Assembly (NCBI GenBank): GCA_046498225.1
Contig: JAWOBF010000043.1
Span: 16,957-80,956 of the forward strand
Origin: Candidatus Aegiribacteria sp.
GTDB lineage: Bacteria; Fermentibacterota; Fermentibacteria; Fermentibacterales; JCC-6
Reading direction: 5' to 3'
Length of the DNA: 64,000 nt
In this document: positions 31,113-54,860 of the stretch, in pieces
Numbering within the stretch: the first letter of the stretch is position 1
Layout of the letters: the number at the start of each line of letters is the position of its first letter
The notes under the pieces: model-generated
The model's input: the letters and a program-made list of their open reading frames with translations, nothing else
What the model was told of the DNA's origin: nothing
Databases searched by the model: none
Position numbers and translations under genes: made by a program

Positions 31113-32138
31113 TCATGTTGTAGAGCTTTGAATCTCCTGCCGTATTCTGTCGCTGACCCCGCATCTGTAGAAGTCACAGGCGGCGACCACGGCGTTTTTG
31201 ATGGCTTTTGGGGTGCTGCTGCCGTGAGCCACGATAGAAACACCGTCCAGCCCCAGCAGAGGCGCGCCTCCGTACTCGGCGGAATCGAGTCTCTCCCACA
31301 GCTTGGAAAAGGAATGCCTCATGAGAAGATACCCCGCCCGTGAAGCCCAGTGACGCTTCATCTCCAGGTAGAGCGAACCTCCGACCATGTCAGCTATGGA
31401 CTCGTACGTCTTGAGAAGCACGTTGCCGGCGAAACCGTCGCACACAACCACATCGGCCTCGCCCTTGAGTATTCCGTCACCCTCTATATTGCCCCTGAAA
31501 TTGAGCCGGGAATCCTCGAGCATACCGTAGAGCTCCTGCAGGACCGCCGGGCCCTTGGTCCTTTCGTGGCCTACGTTCAGGACCAGGACCCTGGGGTCGT
31601 CGATATCGAAGACGCTTCTGGAATATGCGGTGCCCATAATGGCGAACTGGAACAGCTGATTCTCGTTGCATCCAACATTAGCCCCTACGTCCAGTATCAC
31701 GGTGGGATTCTTCTGAGTAGGGACGGTTCCGGCTATCGCCGGCCTGGGTATCCCTTCTATTCTCCCGAGGGCGAAGAGACTGGCAGCCATCATGGCGCCG
31801 GTATTGCCCGGGCTGACCATGGCCTGGGCCAGGCCCTTCTTCTGAAGACCGGCCATGACCACCATGGAGCTGTTCGGCTTATTCTTCAGGGCTTCGGCCG
31901 GATGGTCGGTCATGGTTATGACCTGAGAGGCGTGCTGTATCGAAATGGGAAGCTTCGCCCCTCCGCTCCTGCTAAGAAGCCCGGACAGGCAGTCCCGGTC
32001 TCCCACCAGGGTGATGGAAACGCCGTCGGTGACGGAACCGTCGCAGTCCCTGAAGAACTTCACCACTCCGCTCACGACAACGGCCGGCCCGTTGTCCCCT
32101 CCCATGGCGTCCACGGCTATATTGAAGTTTTCAGGCAA
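31113..32138 (-). CDS. plsX: phosphate acyltransferase PlsX
   Basis: IAVDAMGGDNGP N-terminus typical of PlsX. Confidence 0.9.
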   Translation of the reverse strand: MPENFNIAVDAMGGDNGPAVVVSGVVKFFRDCDGSVTDGVSITLVGDRDCLSGLLSRSGGAKLPISIQHASQVITMTDHPAEALKNKPNSSMVVMAGLQKKGLAQAMVSPGNTGAMMAASLFALGRIEGIPRPAIAGTVPTQKNPTVILDVGANVGCNENQLFQFAIMGTAYSRSVFDIDDPRVLVLNVGHERTKGPAVLQELYGMLEDSRLNFRGNIEGDGILKGEADVVVCDGFAGNVLLKTYESIADMVGGSLYLEMKRHWASRAGYLLMRHSFSKLWERLDSAEYGGAPLLGLDGVSIVAHGSSTPKAIKNAVVAACDFYRCGVSDRIRQEIQSSTT

Positions 32139-32871: not shown

Positions 32872-34271
32872 CGTTCACCCGCCTCCCGGCGGAGATCGGA
32901 GGTGACCCGGTCCAGGAGCCTGTCCCTGGAATCGGGGGCATCGGACTGGGCGTATATCCTGGCCAGCGGCTCGGTGCCCGAGAGCCTGATGAGTATCCAG
33001 TCTCCCCCCTCCAGAACAAGCCTGGTCCCGTCCGTACGGTCCACCGATTCCACCCGCCGGCCGGCTACGGCCCCGGGACTGGAATCGAACCAGTTCTCCC
33101 GGATGAGTTCCCCGAGCGGCGGGGAAAGACGCATGTCCCTCCTGGATAAGAATATCCTTCCGTACCTTTTCCACAGCCCGGACAGCTGTGCGGCAAGCCC
33201 CGAGCCGGATGCGCATACCATCTCGGCCGCCATCAGGCATGCAAGTATTCCATCCTTCTCCGGGACGTGGCCGTCGATGGAGAGGCCTCCGCTCTCCTCG
33301 CCGGCAAGTATCACTCCGCCCCTGCGCATCTCGGCTCCGAGGTACTTGAAACCAACCGGCGTAACCACCGTTTCCAGACCGTGGGCGGAGGCTACCCGGT
33401 CGAGAAGACTCCCCGTGGTAACGGACCTTACAACCCTGCCGGTGAAGCCCTTCCGCTTAACCAGGTAATCGAGAAGCAGAGGAAGGAAATCATGCGGAGA
33501 AACGAAACTGCCGTTCTCGTCCACTATTCCGAACCTGTCGGCATCACCGTCGGTGGCTGCTCCAAGGGAGGCTCCGCTGGCCAGGACCTGCCTGCCGAGA
33601 TCGACGGTACCGCTCTCACCGGGTTCAGGGTGCTGACGTCCGGCGAAAAGAGGGTCTCTGGTGCCGTTGAGAACCCTGACGGAAGCGCCGAGTTCCACCA
33701 GCAACCTGTCCAGAATACCGGCGCCTGTTCCGGAAAAAGCGTCATATACAACTTTCAGTCCGCTGTCCCTGAAGGCTTCGGGATCCAGGTACTCCATGAT
33801 GTCCGGAATGTAATCGATCCTAAGGTCCGCTGAAGTCACGGAACCGGTTCCGGCGGCAGGTTTCTCTCCCGAATCTATCAGCTCCTCTATTTCGGAGGTC
33901 ATTCCGTCATCGGCGGGTCCCCCGTGCCACGGGCTGAACTTGATTCCGTTGTACAGCGGGGGATTGTGGCTGGCGGTGAAATTGATGATGCCGCCGTGCC
34001 CTCCCTTTCTGCAGGCATGGGATAGCACCGGGGTGGGGCAGGGTCCATCGGAGAGTATCACGTCAAAACCGTACTCGGACATCCTCTCCGCGACCGATTC
34101 CGAAAGCTCCGGGGAAAGGAAGCGGCAATCGCCGCCCACTACCAGCGTGTTCCTGCCTTCGCGCTGCAGCAGGACCCCGATGGCGTCCGCCACCCTGTTC
34201 ACCCTTTCCCAGGTGAATTCCCTGGCGATTATCCCTCTCCAGCCGGAAGTTCCGAACCTTATCCGCATCAC
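32868..34271 (-). CDS. alpha-D-phosphohexomutase (phosphoglucomutase/phosphomannomutase family)
   Basis: FGTSGWRG, catalytic TASHNP, GGDCR, sugar-binding loop GEESGG. Confidence 0.8.
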   Translation of the reverse strand: MMRIRFGTSGWRGIIAREFTWERVNRVADAIGVLLQREGRNTLVVGGDCRFLSPELSESVAERMSEYGFDVILSDGPCPTPVLSHACRKGGHGGIINFTASHNPPLYNGIKFSPWHGGPADDGMTSEIEELIDSGEKPAAGTGSVTSADLRIDYIPDIMEYLDPEAFRDSGLKVVYDAFSGTGAGILDRLLVELGASVRVLNGTRDPLFAGRQHPEPGESGTVDLGRQVLASGASLGAATDGDADRFGIVDENGSFVSPHDFLPLLLDYLVKRKGFTGRVVRSVTTGSLLDRVASAHGLETVVTPVGFKYLGAEMRRGGVILAGEESGGLSIDGHVPEKDGILACLMAAEMVCASGSGLAAQLSGLWKRYGRIFLSRRDMRLSPPLGELIRENWFDSSPGAVAGRRVESVDRTDGTRLVLEGGDWILIRLSGTEPLARIYAQSDAPDSRDRLLDRVTSDLRREAGER

Positions 34272-35749
34272 TCCCCCTCCCTGAGGAACTGAAGCGCTCT
34301 CTGAATGCCGTCGTCATGGGGCGTCATAACCCTGTAGTACATCTCGCGGTCCCAGACCCTGCCGGCTATCTCCGAGAAGAGGGCGGTCTCGATGTAGAAG
34401 AGGTTGTCGGTGAATTCGCCCTCCTCCCATTCGATGCCCCGGTCCAGGAGGTACTGCCTGAACTCCGCAATCGTGCTTTCATCCGGCCAGAAATCCTCCT
34501 CGATATCGTGCTCCTGGACGTATTCAGTGGCGAAATTGAAGAACTCCGAACCCAGGTAGAGTTCCGCCGGAAGGGAACCGGACAGATGCTGGGAGTCCAA
34601 TTCGATGTCGGGGACTATTCCCCAGGTGGCCAGGGAATCGTCAACCTCCTGGCCGTTCATGTAATCCTCATCCATGGTCCTGTCTATGCTCCTGCCGCTG
34701 GGAGTGTAGTATCTGGCTGTGGTGAGCTTGACGCCGTAATGGCCGAGATTGGGGAATTCCCCGAGGTCCATGAGGGTCTGGACCGAACCCTTTCCGAATG
34801 TCCTGCTTCCTATGAGGGTGGCGGCGTCGTTATCCTGAAGGGCGCCTGCCAGTATCTCCGAGGAGCTTGCGCTTGCTCCGTCCACAAGCAGCACCAGCCG
34901 CCCGCCGAACAGCACGCCCTTTGATGTGTAGTAGTCGTCCCGCCCTACTGCCTTGCCCCGGGTGGACACAACCAGGGTGCCGGAGGGAAGGAAGAAGTCG
35001 GCCACTTCCACCGCGGCTGAGAACAGACCTCCGGCGTTGCCCCTGATATCAAGTATCAGGCTTTCCGCTCCCCGGTCCACAAGGTCATTTGTGGCCTCCA
35101 TGACCTCCTTTCCCGTTTCCTCACCGAACCTGGCAAGACGAATGTAACCGACGGCGTCATCTATCATGAAGTTCGCGCTGACCGATGGCAGGTCTATCAC
35201 ATCGCGCTGAATGTTGAACTCCAGGGAATCCGAAATACCGGGCCGGACCACGGTGAGGTCCACCGTTGTGCCTTCAGGCCCCCTGATCTGCATCACGGCC
35301 TCGGTGGTGGTGATACCCTCGGTGGAGCTGCCGTCTATCTCCACTATCCTGTCACCCGCCTTCATTCCGGCCCTGAAGGCCGGGGTACCCTCCACCGGGG
35401 CGATGACGGTCAGCCAGTCCTCCCTGATGCCGATGGTTATTCCCACACCCTCGAAGGAGCCGGAGAGCTGAATTCTCAGGTTCTCGTAATCGTCCGGGTT
35501 CAGCAGCACGCTGTTGGGGTCCAGCGAATCCAGCATTCCCCTCAGCGCCGCCTCTATGAGTTCCTGGGAATCCAGTGAATCAACATAGGTCACGCTGGTC
35601 CTGGAGAAGACGTCCATGAAAAGCTCTATGGAGGAATTCGTCGTCACCGCGTCGTAGGCGATGGCGGAGGGAAGCAGCATCAGACCGGCAGCGACTATCA
35701 GGCCGGCGGCTAGCACGACTGTTACCCATCCGGGCAGAAATTTTTTCAT
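34268..35749 (-). CDS. carboxyl-terminal processing protease (peptidase S41) with PDZ domain
   Basis: GSRTFGKGSVQT catalytic Ser motif; PDZ GVGITIG...GDRIVEIDG. Confidence 0.85.
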   Translation of the reverse strand: MKKFLPGWVTVVLAAGLIVAAGLMLLPSAIAYDAVTTNSSIELFMDVFSRTSVTYVDSLDSQELIEAALRGMLDSLDPNSVLLNPDDYENLRIQLSGSFEGVGITIGIREDWLTVIAPVEGTPAFRAGMKAGDRIVEIDGSSTEGITTTEAVMQIRGPEGTTVDLTVVRPGISDSLEFNIQRDVIDLPSVSANFMIDDAVGYIRLARFGEETGKEVMEATNDLVDRGAESLILDIRGNAGGLFSAAVEVADFFLPSGTLVVSTRGKAVGRDDYYTSKGVLFGGRLVLLVDGASASSSEILAGALQDNDAATLIGSRTFGKGSVQTLMDLGEFPNLGHYGVKLTTARYYTPSGRSIDRTMDEDYMNGQEVDDSLATWGIVPDIELDSQHLSGSLPAELYLGSEFFNFATEYVQEHDIEEDFWPDESTIAEFRQYLLDRGIEWEEGEFTDNLFYIETALFSEIAGRVWDREMYYRVMTPHDDGIQRALQFLREGE

Positions 35750-39244: not shown

Positions 39245-39682
39245 TCAGCCCCGGCACCGAAATGGGACATTTCCGAAGAACAGTACAGTTATTCCCAGGC
39301 CGGCGGCAAGTCCGGTTAGCATTCTCAGCAGGTTGCCGCTCTGGTAGATATTGTGATACTGCAGAAGCCCGTCGACGGCAAGGGGAAGCAGGGCGGGAAT
39401 TCCAGCCCAGAACGGAACGCGTATCGCGGGCCTGTACATCAGGACGGTTCCCGCGGCGGCTCCCAGCCAGAAGGCGGTACATCTGGCGCAGAGGGCCGAG
39501 TACCCCCACGGCAGCAGCACAGACCGGGAGGGCAGCCGGTGGCATACGGCGGAAAGCGCGGGGTCGAGGAAACCGCAGGCCTTCCCGGTGAGAGGTCCGG
39601 CCATGGAAAGGGCGAAAAGCAGGAAGGAGGGCACACCCAGCATAAGAGCCAGGACGAGCCTCCCCCCGCTGAACCGTTTCAT
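39245..39682 (-). CDS. DUF2085 family membrane protein
   Basis: CHR...C.RC.AFW Cys pattern between TM helices. Confidence 0.5.
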   Translation of the reverse strand: MKRFSGGRLVLALMLGVPSFLLFALSMAGPLTGKACGFLDPALSAVCHRLPSRSVLLPWGYSALCARCTAFWLGAAAGTVLMYRPAIRVPFWAGIPALLPLAVDGLLQYHNIYQSGNLLRMLTGLAAGLGITVLFFGNVPFRCRG

Positions 39683-39713: not shown

Positions 39714-41312
39714 TCAATCCCCTATCCAGATTATTCTGGTCTGGTTGTCGGGTTCCACCATGTCAAGCATGTCGATATAGGCGGTAACAGCCTCACGCAG
39801 AGTCATCTCCGCGGGGACAGCCTGGTGTTCCAGCATTATATCGTATCCCACGTTTCCCTGGGCCAGGTATCCGGTGGTGACGAATCTGTATACGCTGTCC
39901 GGATGCCAGGGCTCTCCCCCGACAAGGATATTGTCCATTTTCTGACCGTCGGGCATGGACTGGTCCCTTGTGGCGGTGAGGCCGCCTATCTCCATGTCCC
40001 TTCTCCGGCCCTGCATGCCTGTCTCCAGGATGTCCTTCAGCTGGGAGCCGGTGAGTTCCATGACGAAAAGCTGCTCCTCGAAGGGAAGGCACTGGTAGAT
40101 GATTCGGGGAGTGACGGGACCCCTGGGCAGGGCGGCCCTTATTCCCCCCCGGTTCATAAGGGCGACGTCGGCATCCGTGCTCCAGAGCATGGCATCGGCC
40201 ACCAGCCTTCCCATGGGATGCTCGGCCCCTCCCCTGGGTATCTCGTCCAGGGCCTCACCGATGACCTGGTCCATGCCGGCTTCGGCCACCGACCTGAATT
40301 CCTCTATCATTCGGGCCACTTCCGGGTCGGGCCAGAACTGGTCATGCAGAAGACTGATATACTCCTCGCCCTCCGGCAGGTCGTAGCCGACCAGGGTCCC
40401 GCTGTCGGTATCAATGGCCAGCCTTATCCGCCCTATGCCTGTGCCGTTGGCGTAACCCTGAACTACTACGGTGTGGCTTACCGGGCTCACCCATGGCTCC
40501 GCGAACCCCACGTGGAAATGACCGGAGACGATAAGGTCGATGCCCTGGACAAGGCAGGTGAGTTCGGCGTTGTTCATGGAGAAGTCCTTGGTGTACTCCT
40601 CCCCCTCCCTCCATGCGTCGAAGACCCTCTGGAGGTAGCGGTCCGGGTCCGACGGCTGGCCCAGGTGGGAGACGAGTATGATGATGTCGGCACCCAGTTC
40701 GGTGACCTCGCTGACGTATCTCTCGGCGGTCTCCACCTCGTTCAGGAACACATAATCGCCCAGGAGCTCGGGGGTTACCAGGCCGTAGGTGTCAGGTGTG
40801 TTGAGCCCTATGAACGCTACTTTCGCGCCGTCGTACTCCCTTATCTCGTAGGGAACGACCGGGTCCGGTATCTCCCCGGTGGAAGCATTTACGAAGTTCG
40901 CGCAGACAACGGGGAACTCCGCCTGCTCGCACAGTTCCAGGGCATTGTCGGTCCCGTCGTCCAGATCATGGTTCCCCAGGGTCATCATGTCGTAACCGGC
41001 GGCGTTCATCCATTCCATCACGAACTCCCCACCCTCGTAGTTCCCGGTGGGGGTGCCCTGGTATATGTCTCCCGCGTCGATGAGAAGGACGTATTCTCCA
41101 TTCTCCCGGCATTCCCGCCTTACATCGTTCACGTAGGCGCTTATGTAGGCCCCGCCGCCTATCATGGGGGGAAAGTCCGGGTTGAGAAAACTGGCCTTCT
41201 GAGGCACTATCCCTCCGTGCATATCGTTGGTGTGAAGTATATTGAGGTATATTATCTCTCCCGACGCCCCGAAGGCCAGCACAAGCGACAGGATGGGAAG
41301 CAGTAGTCTCAC
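39714..41312 (-). CDS. secreted bifunctional metallophosphatase / 5'-nucleotidase (UshA-like)
   Basis: Signal peptide; HTNDMHGG, GDIYQGT, GNHDLD calcineurin-like motifs plus C-terminal 5'-nucleotidase domain. Confidence 0.8.
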   Translation of the reverse strand: MRLLLPILSLVLAFGASGEIIYLNILHTNDMHGGIVPQKASFLNPDFPPMIGGGAYISAYVNDVRRECRENGEYVLLIDAGDIYQGTPTGNYEGGEFVMEWMNAAGYDMMTLGNHDLDDGTDNALELCEQAEFPVVCANFVNASTGEIPDPVVPYEIREYDGAKVAFIGLNTPDTYGLVTPELLGDYVFLNEVETAERYVSEVTELGADIIILVSHLGQPSDPDRYLQRVFDAWREGEEYTKDFSMNNAELTCLVQGIDLIVSGHFHVGFAEPWVSPVSHTVVVQGYANGTGIGRIRLAIDTDSGTLVGYDLPEGEEYISLLHDQFWPDPEVARMIEEFRSVAEAGMDQVIGEALDEIPRGGAEHPMGRLVADAMLWSTDADVALMNRGGIRAALPRGPVTPRIIYQCLPFEEQLFVMELTGSQLKDILETGMQGRRRDMEIGGLTATRDQSMPDGQKMDNILVGGEPWHPDSVYRFVTTGYLAQGNVGYDIMLEHQAVPAEMTLREAVTAYIDMLDMVEPDNQTRIIWIGD

Positions 41313-41326
41313 TTTATTCCCCCCGC

Positions 41327-42559
41327 CTACAGCTGGAACGCCCGGCTGATGGAGAGCATCAGCCTGGTTTCGGTTTCCTCCACGGTGAGGCTGTCACCCG
41401 GAGTGAATGAGGGAAGCCCGGTGACCTCCGTCTGCCGCCATCTGTCAGGCGAGAAGCTGGCCCCCAGGTCCAGGTCCCACTCCTCGAACTGGAAGCCGAG
41501 ACCGGTGGTGAAGCTCATCCTGTCAAGCGAAGCGGCTATGGGAGAACGCCGGTAGCTGAAGCCGAACCTCGCGGTGGGTCCTCCCGGCAGTGAGTTCTCC
41601 ACCCCGGCGCTGATGCCCCAGGAATTGTGAAGCCCCAGGCTTGTCCCCTGGAATTCAAGTGAGCTCTCGTTGCTCCAGTGGAACTCCCCGGTGACCCTGG
41701 ACCTCAGGATATTGCCGGGCACGTAGAGGGCGCCCAGCCTCGCGGTCATCGGCATGTCAAGGTCGTAATCGTCGTCGGACAGGGTGTTCCAGTCTACAGG
41801 GTCACCGCTGTTCTCCGGCGAGACCGAGAGTTCCATGGGATACTCCAGGCCGGCGCTGACGAAAACCCTCCGGTGGGGTCTGAACAGCACCGAACCCCTG
41901 GTCACGATACCGGACATGGACTCCTCGCGTCCGGCCAGTGTCCCGATCTGGGTCGGGTCAACGTTTGTAACCTCCCAGGTCACATTCCTGCTCCCGGTCA
42001 GGTAGCCGCCCGCCAGTCCGAAGGAGAAGTTATCGGAGGGGATGAAAGCCACCGCCAGGTCGAACTCGCTCAGCTGACCCGAGACATCCAGAAGTTCCTC
42101 CCCGGTCCTGACGTAGGAGGCGTCCCTGATGACGCGGCCGTAATCGTAGTCGAAGAGGCAGGGGACCCTGAAACCCGCCGCGAAGGCCAGGGATCCCGGC
42201 ATGCCGCCGGCTCCCCGAAGAGCGGCGGCCGCCCCTCCGGGAAAGAACCCCAGCTCCTTGTTGAAGGCGATCTCAGACTCTCCTATGGAACTCTCGAACT
42301 GGTCGTAGACCCGTCTGGTGCGCTTTTCCACGAAGAAATCCATACCTGCGGACAGCTCCATCAGCAGGCCGTCATCAGATATTCCCAGAAGGGCGGGGTT
42401 CTCCAGTATGCCCAGGGCCGAGGCCTCCATGAAACCGGACGCTCCCATTCCCAGCGAAGCCGCCGACTGGGAACCCGAAGGCTCCCCCAGCCACATCACT
42501 TCCGGCAGCCCGGCCGTTACCGTCATTAGCGAAATCATTCCTGCTGCGATAATGCTCAT
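41327..42559 (-). CDS. outer-membrane beta-barrel, PorV/PorQ (FadL-like, T9SS-associated) family candidate
   Basis: Signal peptide; N-terminal AASLGMGASGFMEASALGILENPALLG resembles the GMGGAFTAVADDA..NPAGLA motif; alternating beta pattern; terminal RAFQL. Confidence 0.45.
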   Translation of the reverse strand: MSIIAAGMISLMTVTAGLPEVMWLGEPSGSQSAASLGMGASGFMEASALGILENPALLGISDDGLLMELSAGMDFFVEKRTRRVYDQFESSIGESEIAFNKELGFFPGGAAAALRGAGGMPGSLAFAAGFRVPCLFDYDYGRVIRDASYVRTGEELLDVSGQLSEFDLAVAFIPSDNFSFGLAGGYLTGSRNVTWEVTNVDPTQIGTLAGREESMSGIVTRGSVLFRPHRRVFVSAGLEYPMELSVSPENSGDPVDWNTLSDDDYDLDMPMTARLGALYVPGNILRSRVTGEFHWSNESSLEFQGTSLGLHNSWGISAGVENSLPGGPTARFGFSYRRSPIAASLDRMSFTTGLGFQFEEWDLDLGASFSPDRWRQTEVTGLPSFTPGDSLTVEETETRLMLSISRAFQL

Positions 42560-42571
42560 TGTTCCTCCACC

Positions 42572-45001
42572 CTACCAGCGGAAATCCAGCTGACAGCGGA
42601 TCCCGTATTCCGTAGCATGATCGATGAAATCCCTTACCGGGCTGCCCGGGTCTCCCTCGTAGTAGAAGCTGTCGTCCGGGTCGGGCCTGTACAGCCCGGT
42701 TCTGGGATAGAAAGTGTCTTTGCGAAGCACCCTCAGCCTTAGCTGCAGGTTGTCCGATAGGTTGTTCTTCACGGTCACGTAGAACTTCGTGCCGTCCCCG
42801 TCAAGGAAATCTATTCCGGTATCCTCGAATTCCCACTGGCTCATTCCGTCGGTGGACCACAGGGTGGACCCGCCCAGTACGGACAGGTTCCGGCTGAAGT
42901 TGTGCTCCCACCTTACGGCCACGTAGCCCCCGGTCATCAGCCTGTCGTCCCCGTAGAGAGGGTTGGGGGTCAGCTCCACCATCCCGTACCTCAGCCGCAC
43001 ATCGAAATAGTCGCTGTTCGTGGGAAGGAAGAACGTCCTGAAGGTGTACTCGGTGGTGCGTGAGGTGGTAGGCACCACGTCATGCATCTTGGTCTTCTCC
43101 TGGTACTTGTACTTCAGCCTGAACCTGACGGTGAAGTCGGGTCTGTACTCAACCTCGCCCTGCAGCCTGTGGTTGTCGAAACCGTAGGGGAGCGACCTCC
43201 ACATGTCCAGGTATACCCTGGTGAACGTAATGCTCCTGCTCACCTGGAACCGGCTCTCCAGGTAGAGGCCCTCCTCGGGTTTAGGCGTGGGCCACTGGGC
43301 CAGCTGGGACGCCAGGGGGTCGTTCAGGTAGTAGGGTTTCTCGAAGATGGTGTCGTCGTAGCGGAGCTGTTCGGCGAAGCCGCGGTTGTAGGGATTATTG
43401 AAACCCAGGTCGTAGCGGCGCCATATGCCAAGGAGGTAGAAGTAGTCATTCTGCCATCTGCCCCTGGCCAGCGCGGCCATGGCGTCGTTGTCCTGTCGGA
43501 CGACTTCGCCCTCCAGGCTGACGTTGTCGATGATGGTCTGGGCGGACAGGCCGAGGAAGGAGGCGGATTCCCCCGCCTCCAGGATATCGTACTCCGGGCA
43601 GTCCCAGTTCTGGGCATCCCCGGGAATGTCCATGACGGCCGCGTCCGGCACCAGCGAATCGCTGTAGTTCACGCTCATCGCTCCCAGTCCGATGGCGGTG
43701 CCGTAGGGAAGGAATCCTCCGAAGTCGTAAAAGCCGTATCCTCCGTAGGTGGTCTCCTTCAGGACGTCCGCGTAGGGAGTTGTCCTGGTGGAGGACATGA
43801 CCGGAATGCTGGGTGTGCCGTCAAGCGCGGTTATGGCGTCCCGGGAGGCATTGGAGTAGAAACCGTAACCGAGGAAGGGTCCGCTCTGGAATTCGAGGGC
43901 TCCTCCCAGCAGGGCGAACTGCCTCGTGGACGTAAGGTCCGGGTAGAGGCCCCAGTTACGGTATGTGGACCTGTACATCATCTCATCCGTATTGTCCACC
44001 AGCAGGCCCTGTCCCAGCGAGAGGTGGTAGTTGCCCAGGACCACCTGCCTTACCGCCCCTATGTTCTCGATGGAGGCGAACCCCTTGGCCACGTCGAACC
44101 GGTCGTTGAGGTCTCCCAGTTCCAGGTCGTTGACCAGCCCGAAACCGGACGTGGAATTCCTGCCTCGGGACAGCCTGGCGCCGCCCCGGAACCGGTCCCC
44201 GAGACCCACTCTCACCCGGTGTTCCCATCCAATGGTGTTCTGCGCCTGAAGAAGCTCCTGGTACTGGTCCTGAACCCTTCCGGCCCAGGCGATGCTGTCG
44301 GATTCGGTATAGCCGCGGCCGTCGAGAATGTCGTACTCCGCGGACCGGAGTTCTCCCAGCATGGCCGAGAGTCCCTCCTCGTCGTACAGCCTTCCGTCGC
44401 CGCCGTCCACGACTATCCTGTAACTGCCGAAGAATTCCATGGAGGTGAGGTCCAGCTGCCTGGTGGAGACGAAATCCCTCATGTTCCGGTAACCGTAGTA
44501 GGTGAGGTTGTCCACGCTCCTGAGCGAAGTGACGCTGGAGACGGGACCGAGGACCTTGAGCCTTCGCTCCACCGCCACGGCGTCAACCAGGCTCACCCTG
44601 TCCAGGCTGCGAAGCTGCCAGGACGTGGCGGAGTTGACCGGAATGGGCCTGATGAGATAGTTCTCCCACATGTCCACCGCCGCGTCCCCGGGTCCGTCCT
44701 CTGTGGCCAGCCTCTCCATGATGCTGATCACCTCGGTGGAGATGCTGCCCTCGGCAGGGGGTACGACCACGCAGTTGTTCTTCAGATAATCCAGCTCCCG
44801 CGGTCCGAAACCGGGAATTTCCATCACGTCGTAGATACTGCGCAGTCCCCCCGTCTCGAAGATGAACATGTAAAGGTCTTCCACCTGTCCTGCGTCCAGC
44901 TCCTCCAGTTCCCGCAGCTCCTCCAGGCTGGCGGTGTTGAGGTCGAATCCTCCGGGAACGGAGAGACCGATGCAGGCGGCCAGTATGAAACTAGAAATCA
45001 T
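42572..45001 (-). CDS. large outer-membrane beta-barrel protein with two N-terminal ComEA-like helix-hairpin-helix motifs
   Basis: DLNTASLEELREL...IPGFGPRELDYL and PVNSATSWQLRSLDRVSLVDAVAVERRL HhH signatures; ~650 aa of amphipathic beta strands, Y/G/F rich; terminal aromatic LDFRW. Confidence 0.55.
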   Translation of the reverse strand: MISSFILAACIGLSVPGGFDLNTASLEELRELEELDAGQVEDLYMFIFETGGLRSIYDVMEIPGFGPRELDYLKNNCVVVPPAEGSISTEVISIMERLATEDGPGDAAVDMWENYLIRPIPVNSATSWQLRSLDRVSLVDAVAVERRLKVLGPVSSVTSLRSVDNLTYYGYRNMRDFVSTRQLDLTSMEFFGSYRIVVDGGDGRLYDEEGLSAMLGELRSAEYDILDGRGYTESDSIAWAGRVQDQYQELLQAQNTIGWEHRVRVGLGDRFRGGARLSRGRNSTSGFGLVNDLELGDLNDRFDVAKGFASIENIGAVRQVVLGNYHLSLGQGLLVDNTDEMMYRSTYRNWGLYPDLTSTRQFALLGGALEFQSGPFLGYGFYSNASRDAITALDGTPSIPVMSSTRTTPYADVLKETTYGGYGFYDFGGFLPYGTAIGLGAMSVNYSDSLVPDAAVMDIPGDAQNWDCPEYDILEAGESASFLGLSAQTIIDNVSLEGEVVRQDNDAMAALARGRWQNDYFYLLGIWRRYDLGFNNPYNRGFAEQLRYDDTIFEKPYYLNDPLASQLAQWPTPKPEEGLYLESRFQVSRSITFTRVYLDMWRSLPYGFDNHRLQGEVEYRPDFTVRFRLKYKYQEKTKMHDVVPTTSRTTEYTFRTFFLPTNSDYFDVRLRYGMVELTPNPLYGDDRLMTGGYVAVRWEHNFSRNLSVLGGSTLWSTDGMSQWEFEDTGIDFLDGDGTKFYVTVKNNLSDNLQLRLRVLRKDTFYPRTGLYRPDPDDSFYYEGDPGSPVRDFIDHATEYGIRCQLDFRW

Positions 45002-45821
45002 ATGTCACCCCGAACTGGTGGGTAAGGTCCAGCTTTGGATGGCTGATAACGGCGTAATCCAGCTGAATGCCGCTTACCGTCGTCCCGAGGCCGCCGGATA
45101 CGGTCACCGGGCTGCTCTGTACCCCCGCCATCAGCGTCATCGCCCCGAGGGGAAGGGACTGGCCCGCGTGCAGCCTCGTCCCGTTGAAGTCCCGGGAGAG
45201 GGTGACGGCGGACATCATGCCACTGGAAGGTTCGTAGCGGAGCCCGGCGTCTATCCTCCTCTTCATATACTCGCCGCTCTCCCCCACCCTGGCCTGGAAG
45301 GGGTTCCTCATGGAAGCCGCCAGAAGCCATCTGCCGTACATCCTCACCTGGAACCCGGTATTCACAGCGAAGGCGGTGGCGCTTCCGTACTCGGACACCC
45401 CCTCGGCGATCTCGGCCCTGCATATTACCGGCTGCACTCCGAAGGACATGTCATCGGTGAGCATGCCGGCAAAGGTAACCGCCGCCATCTGTTCGCCGTA
45501 GAGGTCTCCTCCGAAACTGCGCAGGCTCAGCCCGGCGCTCCATTCGCCGGCCAGGGGCAGGGCTCCGTCCAGGCCGTAGGTCCCGAAATCCAGGTTGGAG
45601 AATGGAAGTCTTCCGGAGATGACGGCCGCTGTCCCCTCCATCCCGGCGATGGAAGCGGGGTTGAACAGCACCGAACCCGGGCCGGTAAGGACGACGCCGG
45701 TGCCCCCCATGGCCTGGGATGCAACTCCTATCTCCAGCTCCTCGAAGGAAGCGGCGGCCTGTCCCAGCGTGACGAACAGAACCAGAAACGCTACTGTAGT
45801 CTTGATTCGCATATGTGACAC
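44991..45821 (-). CDS. outer-membrane beta-barrel, PorP/SprF- or PorQ-like candidate
   Basis: Signal peptide LGQAAA; SQAMGGTGVVLTGPGSVLFNPASIA motif; ends YDF; immediately downstream of a CTD-bearing cargo gene. Confidence 0.45.
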   Translation of the reverse strand: MSHMRIKTTVAFLVLFVTLGQAAASFEELEIGVASQAMGGTGVVLTGPGSVLFNPASIAGMEGTAAVISGRLPFSNLDFGTYGLDGALPLAGEWSAGLSLRSFGGDLYGEQMAAVTFAGMLTDDMSFGVQPVICRAEIAEGVSEYGSATAFAVNTGFQVRMYGRWLLAASMRNPFQARVGESGEYMKRRIDAGLRYEPSSGMMSAVTLSRDFNGTRLHAGQSLPLGAMTLMAGVQSSPVTVSGGLGTTVSGIQLDYAVISHPKLDLTHQFGVTYDF

Positions 45822-45822
45822 C

Positions 45823-46842
45823 TCAATTCAGCGGAGCGGCCACCACGACGGTCTCGGTGGTGGTATAACGCTTGCCTTCGGAATCCATACCCTCCAGGAG
45901 CACGAGATAGGGACCCATGGGGAGGTAATCCCCCGAATCGTCCGTCCCGTCCCACTGGACCACGTCCCCCGCCGGTCTGGAATCGGCCAGAATCGCCACG
46001 TCCCTTCCGGCCCTGTCGAACACGGTAAGAGTGAAGCTCATATCGGACGGTCCTCCGTACTCCAGGTTCACCGTCTCTCCCAGCACCGGAGCGAAGGGAT
46101 TCCCGGTAAGGACGGTTAGATGGAATCCGCTGGAAATGGAAGGCTGATAGACCTGAAGGTCCGACTGGTACCGCGGCAGCAGCTGGTAGCCGCTGTCGTA
46201 GGGGGGCTCCGAATCGTACTGTCCCCCGATGCCTTTCATGAACAGCCTGGTGCCGGCGGTCAGGCCGGCGACACTGATACCGGTGGATCCGCTGACCCTG
46301 ACGGCTACCGCGTTCTGGCCGTTCCAGACGCTGAAATTGTAGCCTCCCCCGGCCGATTCCGGATCGCTGGCAACGGTGACCCACTGTCCCTGGGCGCTGT
46401 TGCCCAGCGCCAGAAGCTGCCCTTCAACGTCCTCGGTGACACCCTGGTTGATCCCCAGCTGCAGAGGATCGGGCATTCCCGGAGTATCGATGAAGGTGAA
46501 GTCCGAAGGGGTTGCGGGGGAGATCTCCACAAGGCCGTTGTACTGCTTGATCTCACCCGTTATCCTCCAGCGTTCTCCCGCCGCGATGGGACCGGGGCTG
46601 GCGGACTCGTAGGCGTAGACGTTGATTCCGGCGGTCTCGTCCTGAACGTAGAAGCTCAATCCCGTTTCGGAGAAGAGAGTGCCCTCGCAGGTGGCCGTTC
46701 CTTCGATGGTGAGGATCTCGCCCAGGTGGTCCGGGATGCCGTCACCGTCAAGGTCCTCCCGGGCCTCCAGAATAGTAACGGTCTGGGCTCCGGACAACGA
46801 GACGAAAAGTGTCAGGACCAGGACCGGGAAACTGTTTTTCAT
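45823..46842 (-). CDS. secreted protein with N-terminal OB-fold-like (extracellular-nuclease-type/DUF5689-like) domain and T9SS C-terminal sorting domain
   Basis: TVTILEAR...GEILTIEGTATCEG...SFYVQDETAGINVYAYE...WRITGEIKQYNGLVEI; C-terminus MSFTLTVFDRAGRDVAIL...GPYLVLLEG resembles that of the S8 protease. Confidence 0.55.
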   Translation of the reverse strand: MKNSFPVLVLTLFVSLSGAQTVTILEAREDLDGDGIPDHLGEILTIEGTATCEGTLFSETGLSFYVQDETAGINVYAYESASPGPIAAGERWRITGEIKQYNGLVEISPATPSDFTFIDTPGMPDPLQLGINQGVTEDVEGQLLALGNSAQGQWVTVASDPESAGGGYNFSVWNGQNAVAVRVSGSTGISVAGLTAGTRLFMKGIGGQYDSEPPYDSGYQLLPRYQSDLQVYQPSISSGFHLTVLTGNPFAPVLGETVNLEYGGPSDMSFTLTVFDRAGRDVAILADSRPAGDVVQWDGTDDSGDYLPMGPYLVLLEGMDSEGKRYTTTETVVVAAPLN

Positions 46843-46869
46843 CGTCTCCCCTTTCTTGATTGCTTGAAT

Positions 46870-48246
46870 TCAGTCGAGCTCGGATTCCAGCTCGGCGTCC
46901 GCGAGCCTCGCGGCCCTCTCCAGAGCCTCCTCCGCGCTCATTCTTCCGTATATCGCTATCTCGACGGCCTCGGAGAGGAACATCCTTCCATCGTACCAGA
47001 ACGTTCCCTGGGGCTCGAACTGGGCGTATTCCACCTGAAGCATCACTTCCTCCAGACCCGGATACTCCTGGAATCTCTCCCGTATCGCCGAATGGTCAAG
47101 AGAACTCTCTGTTGCCGGTATGTAACCGGTGGCGGCGCTCCATCTGGCCTGCTGTTCGGGTTCGGTGAACCATTTGATGAACTCCCAGCCCGCCCGGACC
47201 GTGGCGCTGTCGGACCTGAAAAGGATAACGTTGGTGCCCGCTATTATGACGGCTTTCTCCCTTCCGGCGGGAAGGGGGGCTATGCCCAGGGTGAAGACAT
47301 CATCACCGCTGTTCTCCATTCTTTCGACGGTATTCTCAAGGAATGACAGGGAGACCGTGGAGCCCTGGACCATACCCACCTTACCCTCGAGGAAATCATT
47401 CTGATGCGTATACCCCGACGATATCCTGGCGGAGCTGTCGGTGTATATAAGGTGGATCAGCAGCTGAAGGGCCTCTATACCCTCCGGCGAGTTGAACGCG
47501 GTGCTGGAGCTGTCGCTGCTGAGCAGCGCGCCTCCGTTCTGGAGCAGAAGGTTCTCGAACATTCCCACACTGGGATTGAAGGCGGTGCCCCACCTGTCGC
47601 AGTCGTCCATAAGGTCGCCGTCATCGTTGCCGTCATGGGTGAGGGAATCCAGGACCATCCTGTACTCCTCCCAGGTGGCCGGAGGTCGCAGCCCGAGGCT
47701 GTCCATGAGCTGGGTGTTGTAGTAGAGGGCCTGAACGCTCTTGTTGAAGGGGAAACTGTATATCCGGCCATTGTAGGTGTTGTTGCGGCGGAAAACGGTG
47801 AAGAAATCGTTCTCCCATCTCTCCGTCACCGCCGGGTCATCCAGCCGCATAAGCGAATCCAGCGGGACAAGCGCTTCCCCTCTTATCAGCTGTGATGTCC
47901 AGGTCTCGTACGCCTGGGCCACCACCGGAGTGTCCCCGGCCATGACGCTGGCCAGTATCTTCTGGCAGAGGGCCCTGTAGTTGCCCATGCTCACAGGTAT
48001 CACCCTGATACCGGGATGAGTAGCGTTGAACTCCTCTATCAGGGTATCTTCGAGATATTCGCCCAGAGGGCCGCCCATGGCATGCCAGAATATCACCTGG
48101 ACCTCATCGGCGGTGTTCGATGAACCGTCCCCGCAGGCCAGCGCCAGCGCGAGTATCAGGATGGCCGGGCAGGATCTTGTGAGCAGAATCCACCTCCCTG
48201 GATGGAGCCGGAGAATAATGGCTAGTATACTATCTTGAAAATGCAC
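46870..48246 (-). CDS. ABC transporter substrate-binding lipoprotein (family 1, sugar-type)
   Basis: Lipobox LALAC; typical SBP_bac_1 features. Confidence 0.7.
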   Translation of the reverse strand: MHFQDSILAIILRLHPGRWILLTRSCPAILILALALACGDGSSNTADEVQVIFWHAMGGPLGEYLEDTLIEEFNATHPGIRVIPVSMGNYRALCQKILASVMAGDTPVVAQAYETWTSQLIRGEALVPLDSLMRLDDPAVTERWENDFFTVFRRNNTYNGRIYSFPFNKSVQALYYNTQLMDSLGLRPPATWEEYRMVLDSLTHDGNDDGDLMDDCDRWGTAFNPSVGMFENLLLQNGGALLSSDSSSTAFNSPEGIEALQLLIHLIYTDSSARISSGYTHQNDFLEGKVGMVQGSTVSLSFLENTVERMENSGDDVFTLGIAPLPAGREKAVIIAGTNVILFRSDSATVRAGWEFIKWFTEPEQQARWSAATGYIPATESSLDHSAIRERFQEYPGLEEVMLQVEYAQFEPQGTFWYDGRMFLSEAVEIAIYGRMSAEEALERAARLADAELESELD

Positions 48247-48264: not shown

Positions 48265-48528
48265 TCAGGATTCGTCGCAGCGGCCTCCGGCGGGACAGCT
48301 GTCCCCTTTCTCTCCGCAGCTTCCGCCGGCGCAGCCGCCGTCCCCGCCACGGGCGTAGTCCGTAGCGTAAAAACCGGTTCCCTTGAAGATGATGCCAGAA
48401 CCCGTACCTATCATCCTCTCCGCCTCTTCCCCGCAGTCGGGGCAGGCCCTGGGAGCAACATCGTTCATGTTATGGAACACATCAAACCTCAGGCCGCAGC
48501 CTTTACACCTGTATTCGTAAGTCGGCAT
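48265..48528 (-). CDS. FmdB-family zinc-ribbon regulatory protein
   Basis: MPTYEYRCKGCGLRFDV...CPDCG CxxC-x18-CxxC. Confidence 0.7.
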   Translation of the reverse strand: MPTYEYRCKGCGLRFDVFHNMNDVAPRACPDCGEEAERMIGTGSGIIFKGTGFYATDYARGGDGGCAGGSCGEKGDSCPAGGRCDES

Positions 48529-53033: not shown

Positions 53034-54860
53034 CTAGAACTGATAGTTCATGCCTACCGAGGCTTTCCAGTAGCTTTCCCTGTCGTCCCTGGAATAGAAG
53101 GAGCGGGTAACGTTCAGGTTCAGCGTACCGCTTCCGAGGTTCATCCTGGTCTTCAGTCCCACGTGATGTATGTGCTCCACCCGCGACGGTATGCTCTGGG
53201 CCAGGTAATTCCTCCTCTGGTACTCCCAGGCGTAGCTGGGGGTCAGGCCGGTATTGCCGCTGACATGGAAACCCAGGTTCAGCTGGATCCTGTTGTTGAT
53301 CACTTCTTCGGACCTAAGGAAGACGGAGTTGGTGTAGCTGCCCTGGTCCTGGAAACGGAACGTATGAGTTACGCCGAGGGCGGTGCTGTCCTGGGACACC
53401 CTCTGGAACGAGGTGTTGGTATTGACCCTCCTGAAGAGCAGGTCGTTGCCGGCGGAGGAGTACTCCGGAAAGAGGAAGGTTGTGTAATCCGCGCTGAGCT
53501 TGATCGATTCTTCAAGGGTCCAGTCCCCGCCGGCCGAGTATTCGAAGCCCGGCTCGAAGCTGTAGGTGGAGGACCTCTTGCTGTTGCCGGACTGCTCGGA
53601 CATGATGTAGATGGTCTCCCTGCTCTGTCCCTGTATCACCGCGTTGAATGTAATCCTATCGCTCACAGGCAGCTCCGAACTCAGCGAAAGCACCTGTCTT
53701 GTCTGGTCGTAGTCGTAATTGTCCGTATGCTCGATGCCCCATATATCCGTCCAGGTGCCGTAGGTATCACGCTTAAGAAGATGCACCGACCTGACGAAGG
53801 TGATGCGGCTTTCTCCCGGAGTATAATCCAGGGCCGCGGTGAACAGGCGGTCATCATCTATGTAGTAGGTATCGAACAGGGTTTCCACTCCGGTTGCGGT
53901 CCGCTTCTGGTCGACCCGGAGTATGTTCCTGGAGAGATTGAGGTTCAGCTTCACTTCATCCATTATCTGGTAACGGAGGGAGGATGATATGTCCCTGTTG
54001 TTCTCCGTCCTGTCCAGGATATCGTCCTGGCTGCCGGCCGAATCGGGGTCGGCATACTCGTAGAACCTGTCGGAATATCTCCATCCGGTGGCTACTTCCA
54101 TGGACACGTTCTCCCAGGGTATCGGCACCACCATGGCCAGACCGCTGGAGAGATCGTCCTGTCTCTGCGTCCTGTTGGAATCATTGTAGGTAATGAACAG
54201 CTTCGAGGCTCTTACCTGGGCATCCAGGCTGCCGCCCCTGAACTGCCGAGGAAAATCGTATCCTATGCGAACTGCGAGGTTGTCGTTCCCGGTATCCTTC
54301 TGGTAGCCCAGTGTCCTGCGCTCGGCGAAGGAGATGTTCCCGGCGAGGCCGGGCAGGATGTCCCGGTTCAGGGTGATATCGGCGTTCCTCACTCCGCCCT
54401 CGTCGTAACCGGTTATTGTACTGTCGCCGGAGGGATTCATGTAGTCAACGAAATGGGCCCCCAGGCTCATGTTGACCGTGAGCCAGGAATTCGGTCTGTA
54501 GCGGATCTGCCCGGAGGTGGTGTTGTTCAGCTGGTCCCTGATGATCTCCCCGTTCTTCTCCTCGGAGCTGACCGTGCGTGACAGGTTCAGGCCGAGTTCG
54601 ATGCCCCGGGCGGGAACGAAGGTGAGATTCGCGTTGCCCGTCCTGCCGTCCAGAAACCTGTCCAGGTCCTGGTTCTTCTCACCGGTGAACGTGGCGGTGG
54701 CGTTCATGGATATCCTGCTGGTGAGCTGCTGTTGAAGGGAGAGGGAGTTCATCAGCTTCATCCTGTCCTTGAACTGGTCGAGTTCCACGTTGTAGCCGAT
54801 GGTCACCCCTCCCGCAACGCCGGCGAGGGTAAGGAGAGCCAGCAGCGCCGGGGTCCTCAT
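53034..54860 (-). CDS. large outer-membrane beta-barrel protein (possible LptD-like)
   Basis: Signal peptide, 608 aa of alternating beta strands, terminal NYQF; overlaps ksgA stop by 4 nt. Confidence 0.55.
   Translation of the reverse strand: MRTPALLALLTLAGVAGGVTIGYNVELDQFKDRMKLMNSLSLQQQLTSRISMNATATFTGEKNQDLDRFLDGRTGNANLTFVPARGIELGLNLSRTVSSEEKNGEIIRDQLNNTTSGQIRYRPNSWLTVNMSLGAHFVDYMNPSGDSTITGYDEGGVRNADITLNRDILPGLAGNISFAERRTLGYQKDTGNDNLAVRIGYDFPRQFRGGSLDAQVRASKLFITYNDSNRTQRQDDLSSGLAMVVPIPWENVSMEVATGWRYSDRFYEYADPDSAGSQDDILDRTENNRDISSSLRYQIMDEVKLNLNLSRNILRVDQKRTATGVETLFDTYYIDDDRLFTAALDYTPGESRITFVRSVHLLKRDTYGTWTDIWGIEHTDNYDYDQTRQVLSLSSELPVSDRITFNAVIQGQSRETIYIMSEQSGNSKRSSTYSFEPGFEYSAGGDWTLEESIKLSADYTTFLFPEYSSAGNDLLFRRVNTNTSFQRVSQDSTALGVTHTFRFQDQGSYTNSVFLRSEEVINNRIQLNLGFHVSGNTGLTPSYAWEYQRRNYLAQSIPSRVEHIHHVGLKTRMNLGSGTLNLNVTRSFYSRDDRESYWKASVGMNYQF

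What the first reader, a model, noticed from the sequence alone, without database searches (positions are those of the whole stretch)
39714..46842. Envelope locus coupling a 5'-nucleotidase, three outer-membrane beta-barrels (one HhH-tagged) and an OB-fold T9SS cargo: candidate extracellular nucleic-acid capture/scavenging system
Five consecutive same-strand genes: a secreted UshA-like 5'-nucleotidase, a PorV-like barrel, an 809-aa barrel carrying two ComEA-type helix-hairpin-helix motifs at its N-terminus, a PorP/PorQ-like barrel, and a secreted protein whose N-terminus resembles the OB-fold of extracellular nucleases (DUF5689-like) with a T9SS C-terminal sorting domain. DNA-binding HhH, nucleic-acid-type OB-fold and nucleotide dephosphorylation are rarely wired together with T9SS-type porins. 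This suggests a surface system that binds extracellular DNA/RNA and feeds nucleotides/nucleosides inward. An ABC substrate-binding protein sits immediately downstream. The family assignments of the barrels and the OB domain are by-eye inferences.
Basis: partly seen in the sequence, partly recalled or inferred. Interest (0 to 1): 0.75.

Follow-up and report, generated by a model that had tools for sequence, protein, structure and literature searches.

The report
Conserved envelope cassette for nucleic-acid scavenging
Five tightly packed genes in an uncultured Fermentibacteria genome form a cassette kept across several candidate phyla, and it most likely captures extracellular DNA/RNA, passes it through a previously undescribed outer-membrane channel and strips phosphate from the resulting nucleotides.

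Summary
Window 39714-46842 (minus strand) carries five co-directional genes separated by -11 to +14 nt:
- g1: secreted tandem-OB (DUF5689/HIN-like) protein with an Ig-like T9SS-type C-terminal domain.
- g2: PorV/PorQ-family barrel.
- g3: 809-aa protein with two periplasmic ComEA-type HhH modules fused to a predicted 24-strand barrel that has no specific structural relative.
- g4: FadL/BamG/PorV-like barrel.
- g5: catalytically intact periplasmic 5'-nucleotidase.

A UgpB-clade ABC binding lipoprotein precedes them; it lies upstream in the direction of transcription, not downstream.

The wiring is a conserved cassette, not a chance neighbourhood. It is complete in all Fermentibacteria loci examined. 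The triad g3-g4-g5 recurs in WOR-3, TA06, Edwardsbacteria, Cloacimonadota and deeper lineages at 22-39% identity. Variable add-ons there include multi-OB/DUF5689 surface proteins, a secreted PLD nuclease, lamin-tail-domain proteins and ABC permeases.

DUF5689 proteins paired with an outer-membrane barrel are experimentally tied to DNA utilisation (B. thetaiotaomicron Ddb) and natural transformation (Riemerella).

Best reading: a nucleic-acid capture, uptake and dephosphorylation system built on a non-TonB barrel. No binding or transport has been shown. The roles of g4 and the HhH modules are inferred, and the window locus contains no nuclease.

The parts
46870..48246 (-). ABC substrate-binding lipoprotein (SBP_bac_8/SBP_bac_1, UgpB-clade CUT1). 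It is the first gene of the run, 27 nt upstream of g1, with a lipobox LALALAC.
   Evidence: Pfam. NCBIfam UgpB scores 111 bits, below the 411 cut-off. The best PDB matches are the 7c14/7c0f series at E 5e-42, followed by UgpB G3P binders. Adjacent in 50/55 Fermentibacteria loci and 5/26 loci of other phyla. Permeases lie next to it in L062, L066, L078 and L092.
45823..46842 (-). g1: secreted 339-aa protein. Signal peptide, then a tandem OB-fold (DUF5689/HIN-like) region at aa ~20-232 (nt 46147-46785), then an Ig-like T9SS-type C-terminal domain at aa ~240-339 (nt 45826-46125).
44991..45821 (-). g2: 276-aa PorV/PorQ-family outer-membrane barrel. Its stop overlaps the g3 start by 11 nt.
   Evidence: NF033709 E 9e-8 for the window protein, below the cut-off. 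14/14 family members hit NF033709 (best 7e-26), 10 hit PorVQ2 and 5 hit T9SS_PorQ. Found immediately upstream of g3 in 57/57 Fermentibacteria loci and 26/30 other loci.
44771..44950 (-). g3 HhH module 1 (aa 18-77), ComEA-type.
44468..44650 (-). g3 HhH module 2 (aa ~118-178), with degenerate hairpins but strongly conserved (D140 and A141 invariant).
   Evidence: Helices in the AF2 model. The alignment to the EEPD1 tandem HhH spans aa 19-167. Two HHH_3 stretches occur in homologs. Family alignments.
42572..44434 (-). g3 barrel (aa 190-809 plus stop): predicted 24-strand outer-membrane beta-barrel of an uncharacterised family, C-terminus ...DFRW.
41327..42559 (-). g4: 410-aa FadL/BamG/PorV-like outer-membrane barrel.
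   Evidence: BamG E 3e-9 (36.5 bits against a 250 cut-off) and PorV_fam E 5e-4. 8/12 family members hit BamG and 6/12 hit PorV_fam. Toluene_X hits are on record for the orthologs in L088 and L090. Found directly after g3 in 59/59 Fermentibacteria loci and 28/30 other loci.
39714..41312 (-). g5: 532-aa UshA-family 5'-nucleotidase with an SPI-type signal peptide and no C-terminal sorting domain.
   Evidence: Metallophos 46 bits and 5_nucleotid_C 109 bits. PDB 3ivd E 4e-50; DxH, GD, GNH(D/E), H and GHxH are conserved in the alignment. Follows g4 in 56/56 Fermentibacteria loci and 20/26 other loci.

Best explanation
The locus encodes an envelope system for acquiring extracellular nucleic acids or oligonucleotides as nutrients (P, N, C).

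Proposed steps:
1. g1 is exported and displayed on the cell surface. Its Ig-like C-terminal domain is probably held by the dedicated PorQ-like barrel g2, as PorZ is held by PorQ. Its tandem OB-fold (DUF5689/HIN-like) module binds DNA or RNA.
2. The polymer, or fragments produced by nucleases encoded elsewhere (or in the locus, in some phyla), passes through the 24-strand barrel of g3. The lumen of this barrel appears to be lined with conserved basic residues.
3. On the periplasmic side, the two ComEA-like HhH modules fused to the barrel receive the incoming strand. They retain it or hand it on.
4. The periplasmic 5'-nucleotidase g5 removes phosphate from the mononucleotides or chain ends.
5. 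The UgpB/U3G-clade binding protein delivers a small phosphoester or nucleoside product to an ABC importer.

g4, a FadL/BamG-like barrel, is an obligatory partner of g3 and g5, but its role is unknown.

Shown here: the domain identities, the predicted folds and topology, an intact nucleotidase active site, and conservation of the cassette across phyla.

Inferred: nucleic-acid binding, passage through g3, the g1-g2 docking, and the identity of the imported product.
For: Three independent nucleic-acid-linked modules are encoded in one tight operon:
- A tandem OB fold whose best structural matches are RPA, aaRS anticodon-binding domains and HIN-dsDNA complexes.
- ComEA-type HhH modules.
- A 5'-nucleotidase with intact metal-site motifs.

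Conservation:
- The cassette is complete in all Fermentibacteria loci. The g3-g4-g5 triad persists at 22-39% identity in WOR-3, TA06, Edwardsbacteria and Cloacimonadota.
- The triad is also present in 5 of 5 still deeper homolog loci.
- All ten deep homologs tested keep the N-terminal HHH_3 domain.

Further links to nucleic acids:
- Genes at the g1 position in other phyla are 785-1367-aa proteins with DUF5689 and tRNA_anti-codon OB domains above threshold, plus FlgD_ig/Por_Secre_tail tails.
- DUF5689 proteins (DdbD, RA0C_RS04920) are the proposed DNA-binding partners of outer-membrane barrels. [quoted passage not shown]
- Add-ons in relatives include a secreted PLDc_2 nuclease between g4 and g5, lamin-tail-domain proteins, and ABC permeases with the same binding-protein family.
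- The binding protein's nearest solved relatives are the T. thermophilus 7c0x series and then UgpB. That clade binds phosphate esters, including a dinucleotide.
- The g3 lumen estimate is net +14 in a protein that is net -41 overall, and the conserved basic residues lie on the lumen face.
Against: - No nuclease is encoded in the window locus or in any Fermentibacteria locus.
- The window g1 does not itself reach any DUF5689 or Por_Secre_tail score.
- Only one of the four HhH hairpins in g3 has the canonical G-hydrophobic-G signature. HhH module 1 is net -10. However, ComEA domains in the PDB are also slightly acidic, and all secreted proteins of this genome are very acidic.
- g1 is net -29.
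- The barrel has no specific structural relative, so its role as a conduit rests on size, topology and a heuristic lumen-charge estimate made without coordinates.
- CUT1 binding proteins mostly bind sugars, and the ligand here is unknown.
- g4 has no assigned role.
- A few relatives (L004-L007) have only g2+g3, without g4 or g5.
Confidence: 0.55

Rival explanations
1. The same outer-membrane machinery (OB surface receptor, HhH-barrel) serves DNA uptake for natural transformation rather than nutrition. On this reading the nucleotidase merely disposes of the degraded strand.
For: The Riemerella DUF5689 protein, its partner barrel and a periplasmic HhH protein are all essential for transformation. 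ComEA-type HhH is the hallmark periplasmic DNA receptor of competence systems. RecJ-like genes follow g5 in 7 loci.
Against: The partners most tightly conserved with g3 are a 5'-nucleotidase and, repeatedly, an ABC importer binding protein and permeases. These are catabolic/uptake functions. No comEC, dprA or pilus genes were found in any of the loci inspected. The RecJ-like proteins lack signal peptides and may be housekeeping neighbours.
Confidence: 0.12
2. The cassette is a T9SS-related secretion or attachment module. g3 with its two PorV-like partners exports or anchors C-terminal-domain cargo such as g1, analogous to SprA-PorV or PorQ-PorZ. The link to nucleic acids is a property of the cargo only, not of the barrel.
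For: g2 is a PorV/PorQ-family protein and g4 is PorV/BamG-like. g1 and its larger counterparts end in FlgD_ig/Por_Secre_tail/CHU_C-like domains. A second cargo plus PorQ-like pair occurs in L062. The gene upstream of g2 in L073 is a Kelch protein with Por_Secre_tail. T9SS is reported in other FCB phyla.
Confidence: 0.15
3. The system imports another anionic phosphoester polymer or its fragments, for example teichoic-acid-like polyol phosphates, glycerophosphodiesters or nucleotide-sugars. The OB and HhH modules would act as generic polyanion binders, and the UshA-family enzyme as a phosphodiesterase or nucleotide-sugar hydrolase.
For: After the 7c0x series, the binding protein's closest solved relatives are glycerol-3-phosphate and glycerophosphocholine binders. 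UshA-family enzymes also hydrolyse UDP-sugars and CDP-alcohols (established knowledge). In Fermentibacteria the locus sits next to envelope-polysaccharide genes: RmlD, SIS, CapC, LPG_synthase_TM.
Against: The best structural matches of g1 are all nucleic-acid-binding OB folds. DUF5689 has experimental links to DNA. The PLD nuclease and LTD add-ons point to nucleic acids. The polysaccharide neighbours are not conserved outside Fermentibacteria.
Confidence: 0.12

Closest known systems
Bacteroidota DNA-utilisation locus ddbABCDEF (B. thetaiotaomicron) and the homologous Riemerella anatipestifer transformation genes RA0C_RS04915/04920
   Same: A surface DUF5689/tandem-OB (HIN-like) protein is encoded next to a large outer-membrane barrel, within the FCB superphylum. 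Both are associated with phosphoester-cleaving enzymes. Riemerella additionally needs a periplasmic HhH protein.
   Different: The barrel here is not a TonB-dependent transporter: it has no plug, CarboxypepD_reg or TonB_dep_Rec hits. The HhH receptor is fused to the barrel. The OB protein carries a T9SS-type C-terminal domain. Two PorV/FadL-like barrels and a 5'-nucleotidase are obligatory. The window locus has no nuclease.
ComEA (periplasmic DNA receptor of competence systems)
   Same: HHH_3 profile match and structural superposition on the ComEA HhH domain. Predicted periplasmic location.
   Different: Two modules are covalently fused to a 24-strand barrel. Three of the four hairpins are degenerate. 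DNA binding is untested.
T9SS PorQ-PorZ / PorV-cargo pairs
   Same: g2 is in the PorV/PorQ family, and g1 ends in an Ig-like C-terminal domain. The cargo gene lies directly upstream of the barrel gene.
   Different: The window g2 scores below the family cut-off (32 bits against 90). No T9SS core genes are in the locus. In many relatives g2 accompanies g3 even when no cargo gene is adjacent.
Vibrio/Shewanella extracellular-DNA utilisation (Xds/Dns or ExeM nucleases, periplasmic UshA/CpdB, nucleoside uptake) and B. subtilis YhcR (OB + nuclease + 5'-nucleotidase fusion)
   Same: The logic is the same: surface or extracellular nucleic-acid handling followed by UshA-family dephosphorylation before import. 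YhcR fuses OB folds to a 5'-nucleotidase (own knowledge; JGI names some g1 homologs 'YhcR').
   Different: In those organisms the genes are scattered, with no dedicated outer-membrane barrel cassette and no HhH-barrel fusion.
BamG, the FadL-like subunit of the Bacteroidota BAM complex
   Same: Best NCBIfam match of g4, and a FadL-like barrel.
   Different: 36.5 bits against a cut-off of 250. g4 is encoded with g3 and g5, not with BAM genes.

Membership tests
ComEA-type HhH (Pfam HHH_3, PF12836) | Profile match above the gathering score | tested here: met
   g3 aa 18-74, 31.8 bits against 27. Homologs score 36-73 bits, several with two stretches.
ComEA-type HhH (Pfam HHH_3, PF12836) | Fold superposes on a solved ComEA HhH domain | tested here: met
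ComEA-type HhH (Pfam HHH_3, PF12836) | Canonical G-hydrophobic-G hairpins and non-specific DNA binding | tested here: inconclusive
   Only IPGFGP (aa ~62-67) is canonical. The other three hairpins are degenerate but conserved. Binding cannot be tested with these tools.
TonB-dependent transporter / DdbC-like barrel | Plug domain, TonB_dep_Rec barrel profile, CarboxypepD_reg N-terminal domain | tested here: not met
DUF5689 / DdbD-like surface DNA-binding protein | PF18942 profile match | tested here: inconclusive
   The window g1 has no hit at E <= 1. It is nevertheless homologous (E 1e-13 to 1e-18) to proteins carrying PF18942. Positional orthologs score 43-51 bits against 28.6.
DUF5689 / DdbD-like surface DNA-binding protein | Tandem OB (HIN-like) fold similar to the p202/AIM2 dsDNA binders | tested here: met
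T9SS cargo (C-terminal sorting domain) | Por_Secre_tail/TIGR04183 or CHU_C/TIGR04131 match at the C-terminus | tested here: inconclusive
   g1: FlgD_ig 27.9 bits against 27, CHU_C 17.9 against 27, no Por_Secre_tail. Orthologs: Por_Secre_tail 18-25 bits, below 27.
T9SS cargo (C-terminal sorting domain) | T9SS core genes (SprA/Sov, PorU, GldKLMN) present in the genome | not tested
   None was found among the window proteins scanned. The whole genome is not available here.
PorV/PorQ family (NF033709) | Score above the curated cut-off (90 bits) | tested here: inconclusive
   The window g2 scores 32 bits. All 14 family members match, best E 7e-26; 10 hit PorVQ2 and 5 hit T9SS_PorQ.
BamG (NF053685) | Equivalog score (250 bits) and association with BamA | tested here: not met
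   g4 scores 36.5 bits. 8/12 members give weak hits. No BAM genes are adjacent.
UshA-family 5'-nucleotidase | Metallophos + 5_nucleotid_C domains with intact dimetal motifs | tested here: met
   46 and 109 bits. NDMHG, DAGD, GNHD, SHLG and GHFH align to 3ivd.
UgpB (sn-glycerol-3-phosphate binding protein) | Equivalog score (411 bits) | tested here: not met
   111 bits. The assignment is at clade level only.

The most novel reading that the evidence does not exclude
g3 defines a new class of outer-membrane nucleic-acid translocon. It would be a 24-strand, TonB- and pilus-independent barrel with a basic lumen and a built-in periplasmic ComEA-like receptor, working with PorV/FadL-like partner barrels. 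On this reading it is the general route by which several uncultured FCB-related phyla (Fermentibacteria, WOR-3, TA06, Edwardsbacteria, Cloacimonadota and others) take DNA/RNA across the outer membrane, for food and possibly for transformation.
Probability: 0.3. Interest if true: 0.85.

Novelty: new variant of a known kind. Interest (0 to 1): 0.7.

Why it matters
Extracellular DNA and RNA are major pools of phosphorus, nitrogen and carbon in sediments and anaerobic digesters, which are the habitats of these uncultured phyla. How diderm bacteria move nucleic acid across the outer membrane is known only for secretin/pilus systems. It has recently been proposed for TonB-dependent DdbC-type transporters.

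A barrel with a fused ComEA-like receptor would be a third solution. It would give a genomic marker for DNA-foraging lineages. It would also be a compact candidate, one barrel plus two small partners, for biochemical reconstitution of DNA passage through an outer membrane.

Tried and rejected
- The promoter/terminator scan of 38.5-50.5 kb gave fewer sites than shuffled controls and nothing on the minus strand inside the operon. It says nothing beyond 'no internal terminator'.
- An apparent g3-g4 fusion ORF in L066 was examined as a possible Rosetta stone and rejected. It is an out-of-frame ORF; g3 ends ...LRW-TGA and g4 is a separate gene.
- DHH-DHHA1 genes after g5 in 7 loci were considered as periplasmic nanoRNases. 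They look like cytoplasmic RecJ, with no signal peptide, so they were not used as evidence.
- The motif 'GNLHAHTSYSDG' in C-terminal-domain proteins after g5 looks PHP-like by eye, but Pfam gave no PHP hit.
- Literature searches for Fermentibacteria plus type IX secretion, for U3GBP, and for Fermentibacteria plus nuclease/extracellular DNA found nothing relevant.
- The identification of PDB 7c0f-7c19 as the T. thermophilus U3G dinucleotide-binding protein rests on my memory of Chandravanshi et al. 2021. The tools confirm only that such a protein exists in the UgpB clade.
- The strong net negative charge of g1 and of HhH module 1 was considered as a refutation of DNA binding. It was down-weighted because all secreted proteins of this genome are that acidic and solved ComEA domains are also net negative.

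Full report
**What is there.**
The window is a ~60% GC chromosomal segment. The closest relatives of its proteins are in Candidatus Fermentibacteria, of the Aegiribacteria type.

The finding covers five minus-strand ORFs that almost abut one another:
- g1: 46842-45823
- g2: 45821-44991
- g3: 45001-42572
- g4: 42559-41327
- g5: 41312-39714

The spacings are 1, -11, 12 and 14 nt. A lipoprotein-type ABC binding protein (48246-46870) lies 27 nt upstream of g1. A DUF2085 membrane protein lies 31 nt downstream of g5. The consensus scan found no terminator-like site inside the run.

**Identity of the parts.**

g5 is a UshA-family 5'-nucleotidase.
- Both Pfam domains score above threshold.
- The five metal-site motifs align to the solved nucleotidase 3ivd.
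- It has an SPI-type signal peptide and no sorting domain.

g3 has one HHH_3 match above threshold, at aa 18-74.
- The AlphaFold model built on 17 homologs has pLDDT 79.5 and pTM 0.77. It shows two helical HhH modules (aa 18-77 and ~118-178), a helical hairpin, and then 24 beta-strands ending ...DFRW.
- No Pfam or NCBIfam family covers the barrel.
- Turns of 2-9 residues alternate regularly with loops of 4-58 residues. This puts both termini, and therefore the HhH tandem, in the periplasm.
- A heuristic assignment takes the more polar face of each strand as lumen-facing. It gives 32 Lys/Arg against 18 Asp/Glu in the lumen, although the whole protein is net -41. Strand 625-638 (VRFRLKYKYQEKTK) forms a basic ladder.
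- Many family-invariant residues lie on that lumen face: R584, R612, R628, K632, S647, T649, E651 and T653.

g1 models well (pLDDT 87.2).

g2 belongs to the PorV/PorQ family. The window protein is below the cut-off, but 14 of 14 family members match, with a best E of 7e-26.

g4 is a more distant member of the same FadL-like superfamily. Its best match is BamG, far below the equivalog cut-off. BamG is the FadL-like barrel of the Bacteroidota BAM complex that holds a surface lipoprotein.

**Conservation.**
A profile search of 1.8 billion representatives found 167 clusters at E < 1e-30. On the order of 80-100 of these are full-length proteins of ~800 aa.

Named members come only from MAGs. The lineages are Fermentibacteria, WOR-3, TA06, Edwardsbacteria, Cloacimonadota, Gemmatimonadota, Eisenbacteria, Elusimicrobiota and Dependentiae. 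All are annotated merely as HhH or ComE-like proteins.

I scanned 92 fetched loci with family HMMs:

| Gene | Fermentibacteria loci | Loci of other phyla |
|---|---|---|
| g2 | 57/57 | 26/30 |
| g1 (or g1-like) | 54/54 | 12/27 |
| g4 | 59/59 | 28/30 |
| g5 | 56/56 | 20/26 |
| Binding protein | 50/55 | 5/26 |

- In all five deep-branching homolog loci inspected, the HhH-barrel is followed by a FadL-like barrel and a 5'-nucleotidase.
- All ten deep homologs tested retain HHH_3 at the N-terminus, often with higher scores and as two stretches.
- A minimal g2+g3 pair occurs in a few genomes.

**Variable add-ons point to nucleic acids.**
- At the g1 position, other phyla encode 785-1367-aa proteins. 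These carry DUF5689 (43-51 bits) and tRNA_anti-codon OB domains (up to 44.5 bits), Big_5 repeats and FlgD_ig/Por_Secre_tail tails.
- Cloacimonadota-like loci insert a secreted PLDc_2 (Nuc-like) enzyme between g4 and g5 (87-90 bits).
- Lamin-tail-domain proteins follow the cassette in L078, L089 and L090.
- ABC permeases sit beside the binding protein in L062, L066, L078 and L092.
- The binding protein's nearest solved relatives are a Thermus thermophilus protein series (E 5e-42) and then UgpB.
- A published analysis places a T. thermophilus uridylyl-3'-5'-phosphoguanosine-binding protein in this phosphate-ester-binding clade (PMC12718374). That the 7c0x entries are that protein is my recollection, not a tool result.

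**Link to known biology.**
Only two papers in the library mention DUF5689, and both concern DNA uptake.
- In Riemerella, a DUF5689 protein, its neighbouring outer-membrane barrel and a separate periplasmic HhH protein are each essential for natural transformation (PMC8459023).
- In B. thetaiotaomicron, the ddbABCDEF locus is required for depletion of exogenous DNA. It encodes three nucleases, the TonB-dependent-type barrel DdbC, and the DUF5689 protein DdbD. DdbD was modelled as a HIN-like DNA binder using 4JBM (10.1101/2025.03.18.642099).

The present cassette has the same logic, a surface OB receptor plus a large barrel plus periplasmic phosphoesterase steps, but with different hardware:
- a non-TonB 24-strand barrel with the HhH receptor fused to it;
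- a T9SS-type rather than lipoprotein anchor for the receptor;
- two PorV/FadL-like accessory barrels;
- an invariant 5'-nucleotidase.

**Mechanism proposed, and its weak points.**
My proposal is surface capture by g1, held by g2 in the way PorQ holds PorZ. This is followed by passage through g3, reception by the periplasmic HhH tandem, dephosphorylation by g5, and ABC import of a small product.

The weak points are these:
- No nuclease is present in the Fermentibacteria version.
- Three of the four HhH hairpins are degenerate.
- HhH module 1 and g1 are strongly acidic. This is tempered by two facts. Secreted proteins of this genome are generally at -6 to -10 net charge per 100 aa, against -0.4 to -4.5 for cytoplasmic ones. 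Solved ComEA domains are also net negative over the aligned stretch.
- The lumen-charge estimate was made without coordinates.
- g4 has no role in the model.

The rival readings are:
- use of the same route for transformation;
- a T9SS-type secretion or anchoring module;
- uptake of other phosphoester polymers.

**Verdict.**

I found no description of the HhH-barrel family or of the cassette in the searched literature. I rate it a new variant of a known kind, the outer-membrane nucleic-acid utilisation/uptake locus. It is built on an uncharacterised barrel family.

Noticed in passing
window 55672-57165 (-): A single 497-aa ORF combines a TatD_DNase domain (aa 53-301) with a Radical_SAM domain (aa 321-486). 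It is either a real fusion or two genes read through in one frame.
   Followed up: no
window 14925-16778 (-) and 53034-54860 (-): Two large ORFs (617 and 608 aa) have no Pfam hit at E <= 1e-4.
   Followed up: no
window 32016-32112 (-): ARAGORN reports a 'tRNA-???' with a two-base anticodon. The Rfam scan did not recover it, so it is probably a false positive.
   Followed up: partly
window-wide (e.g. 34268-35749, 12306-14165, 39714-48246): Secreted and envelope proteins are much more acidic (-6 to -10 net charge per 100 aa) than cytoplasmic ones (-0.4 to -4.5). This suggests adaptation of the extracytoplasmic proteome to a saline or alkaline habitat.
   Followed up: partly
L076 12478-13404 and L082 12427-13353: In Cloacimonadota-like loci the gene at the 5'-nucleotidase position is only 308 aa. 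Its catalytic motifs are altered (HTNDMMG, DAGNCFG) and it has no Pfam hit, so it is probably an inactive remnant. A secreted PLDc_2 nuclease gene sits just upstream.
   Followed up: partly
L062 13192-15419; also L066, L085, L086: A further protein with a T9SS-type C-terminal domain and a PHP-like 'GNLHAHTSYSDG' motif follows g5. In L062 it is followed by another PorQ-like 294-aa barrel, so the pairing of a cargo gene with a PorQ-like barrel recurs.
   Followed up: partly
L004, L006, L007: Some relatives carry only the g2-like (281 aa) plus g3 pair, embedded among NAD, PLP and serine hydroxymethyltransferase genes. They lack g4 and g5 and lie next to a Peptidase_C25 protein.
   Followed up: no
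window 48265-48528 (-) and 39245-39682 (-): A Zn_ribbon_8 (FmdB-like) gene lies 18 nt upstream of the binding-protein gene, and a DUF2085 membrane-protein gene lies 31 nt downstream of g5. Both flank the cassette in Fermentibacteria only. Many relatives have an amine-oxidase gene inserted before DUF2085.
   Followed up: partly
window 7198-7458 (-): Bacterial large SRP RNA (159.7 bits), plus four ordinary tRNA genes elsewhere in the window. This is ordinary chromosomal context.
   Followed up: no
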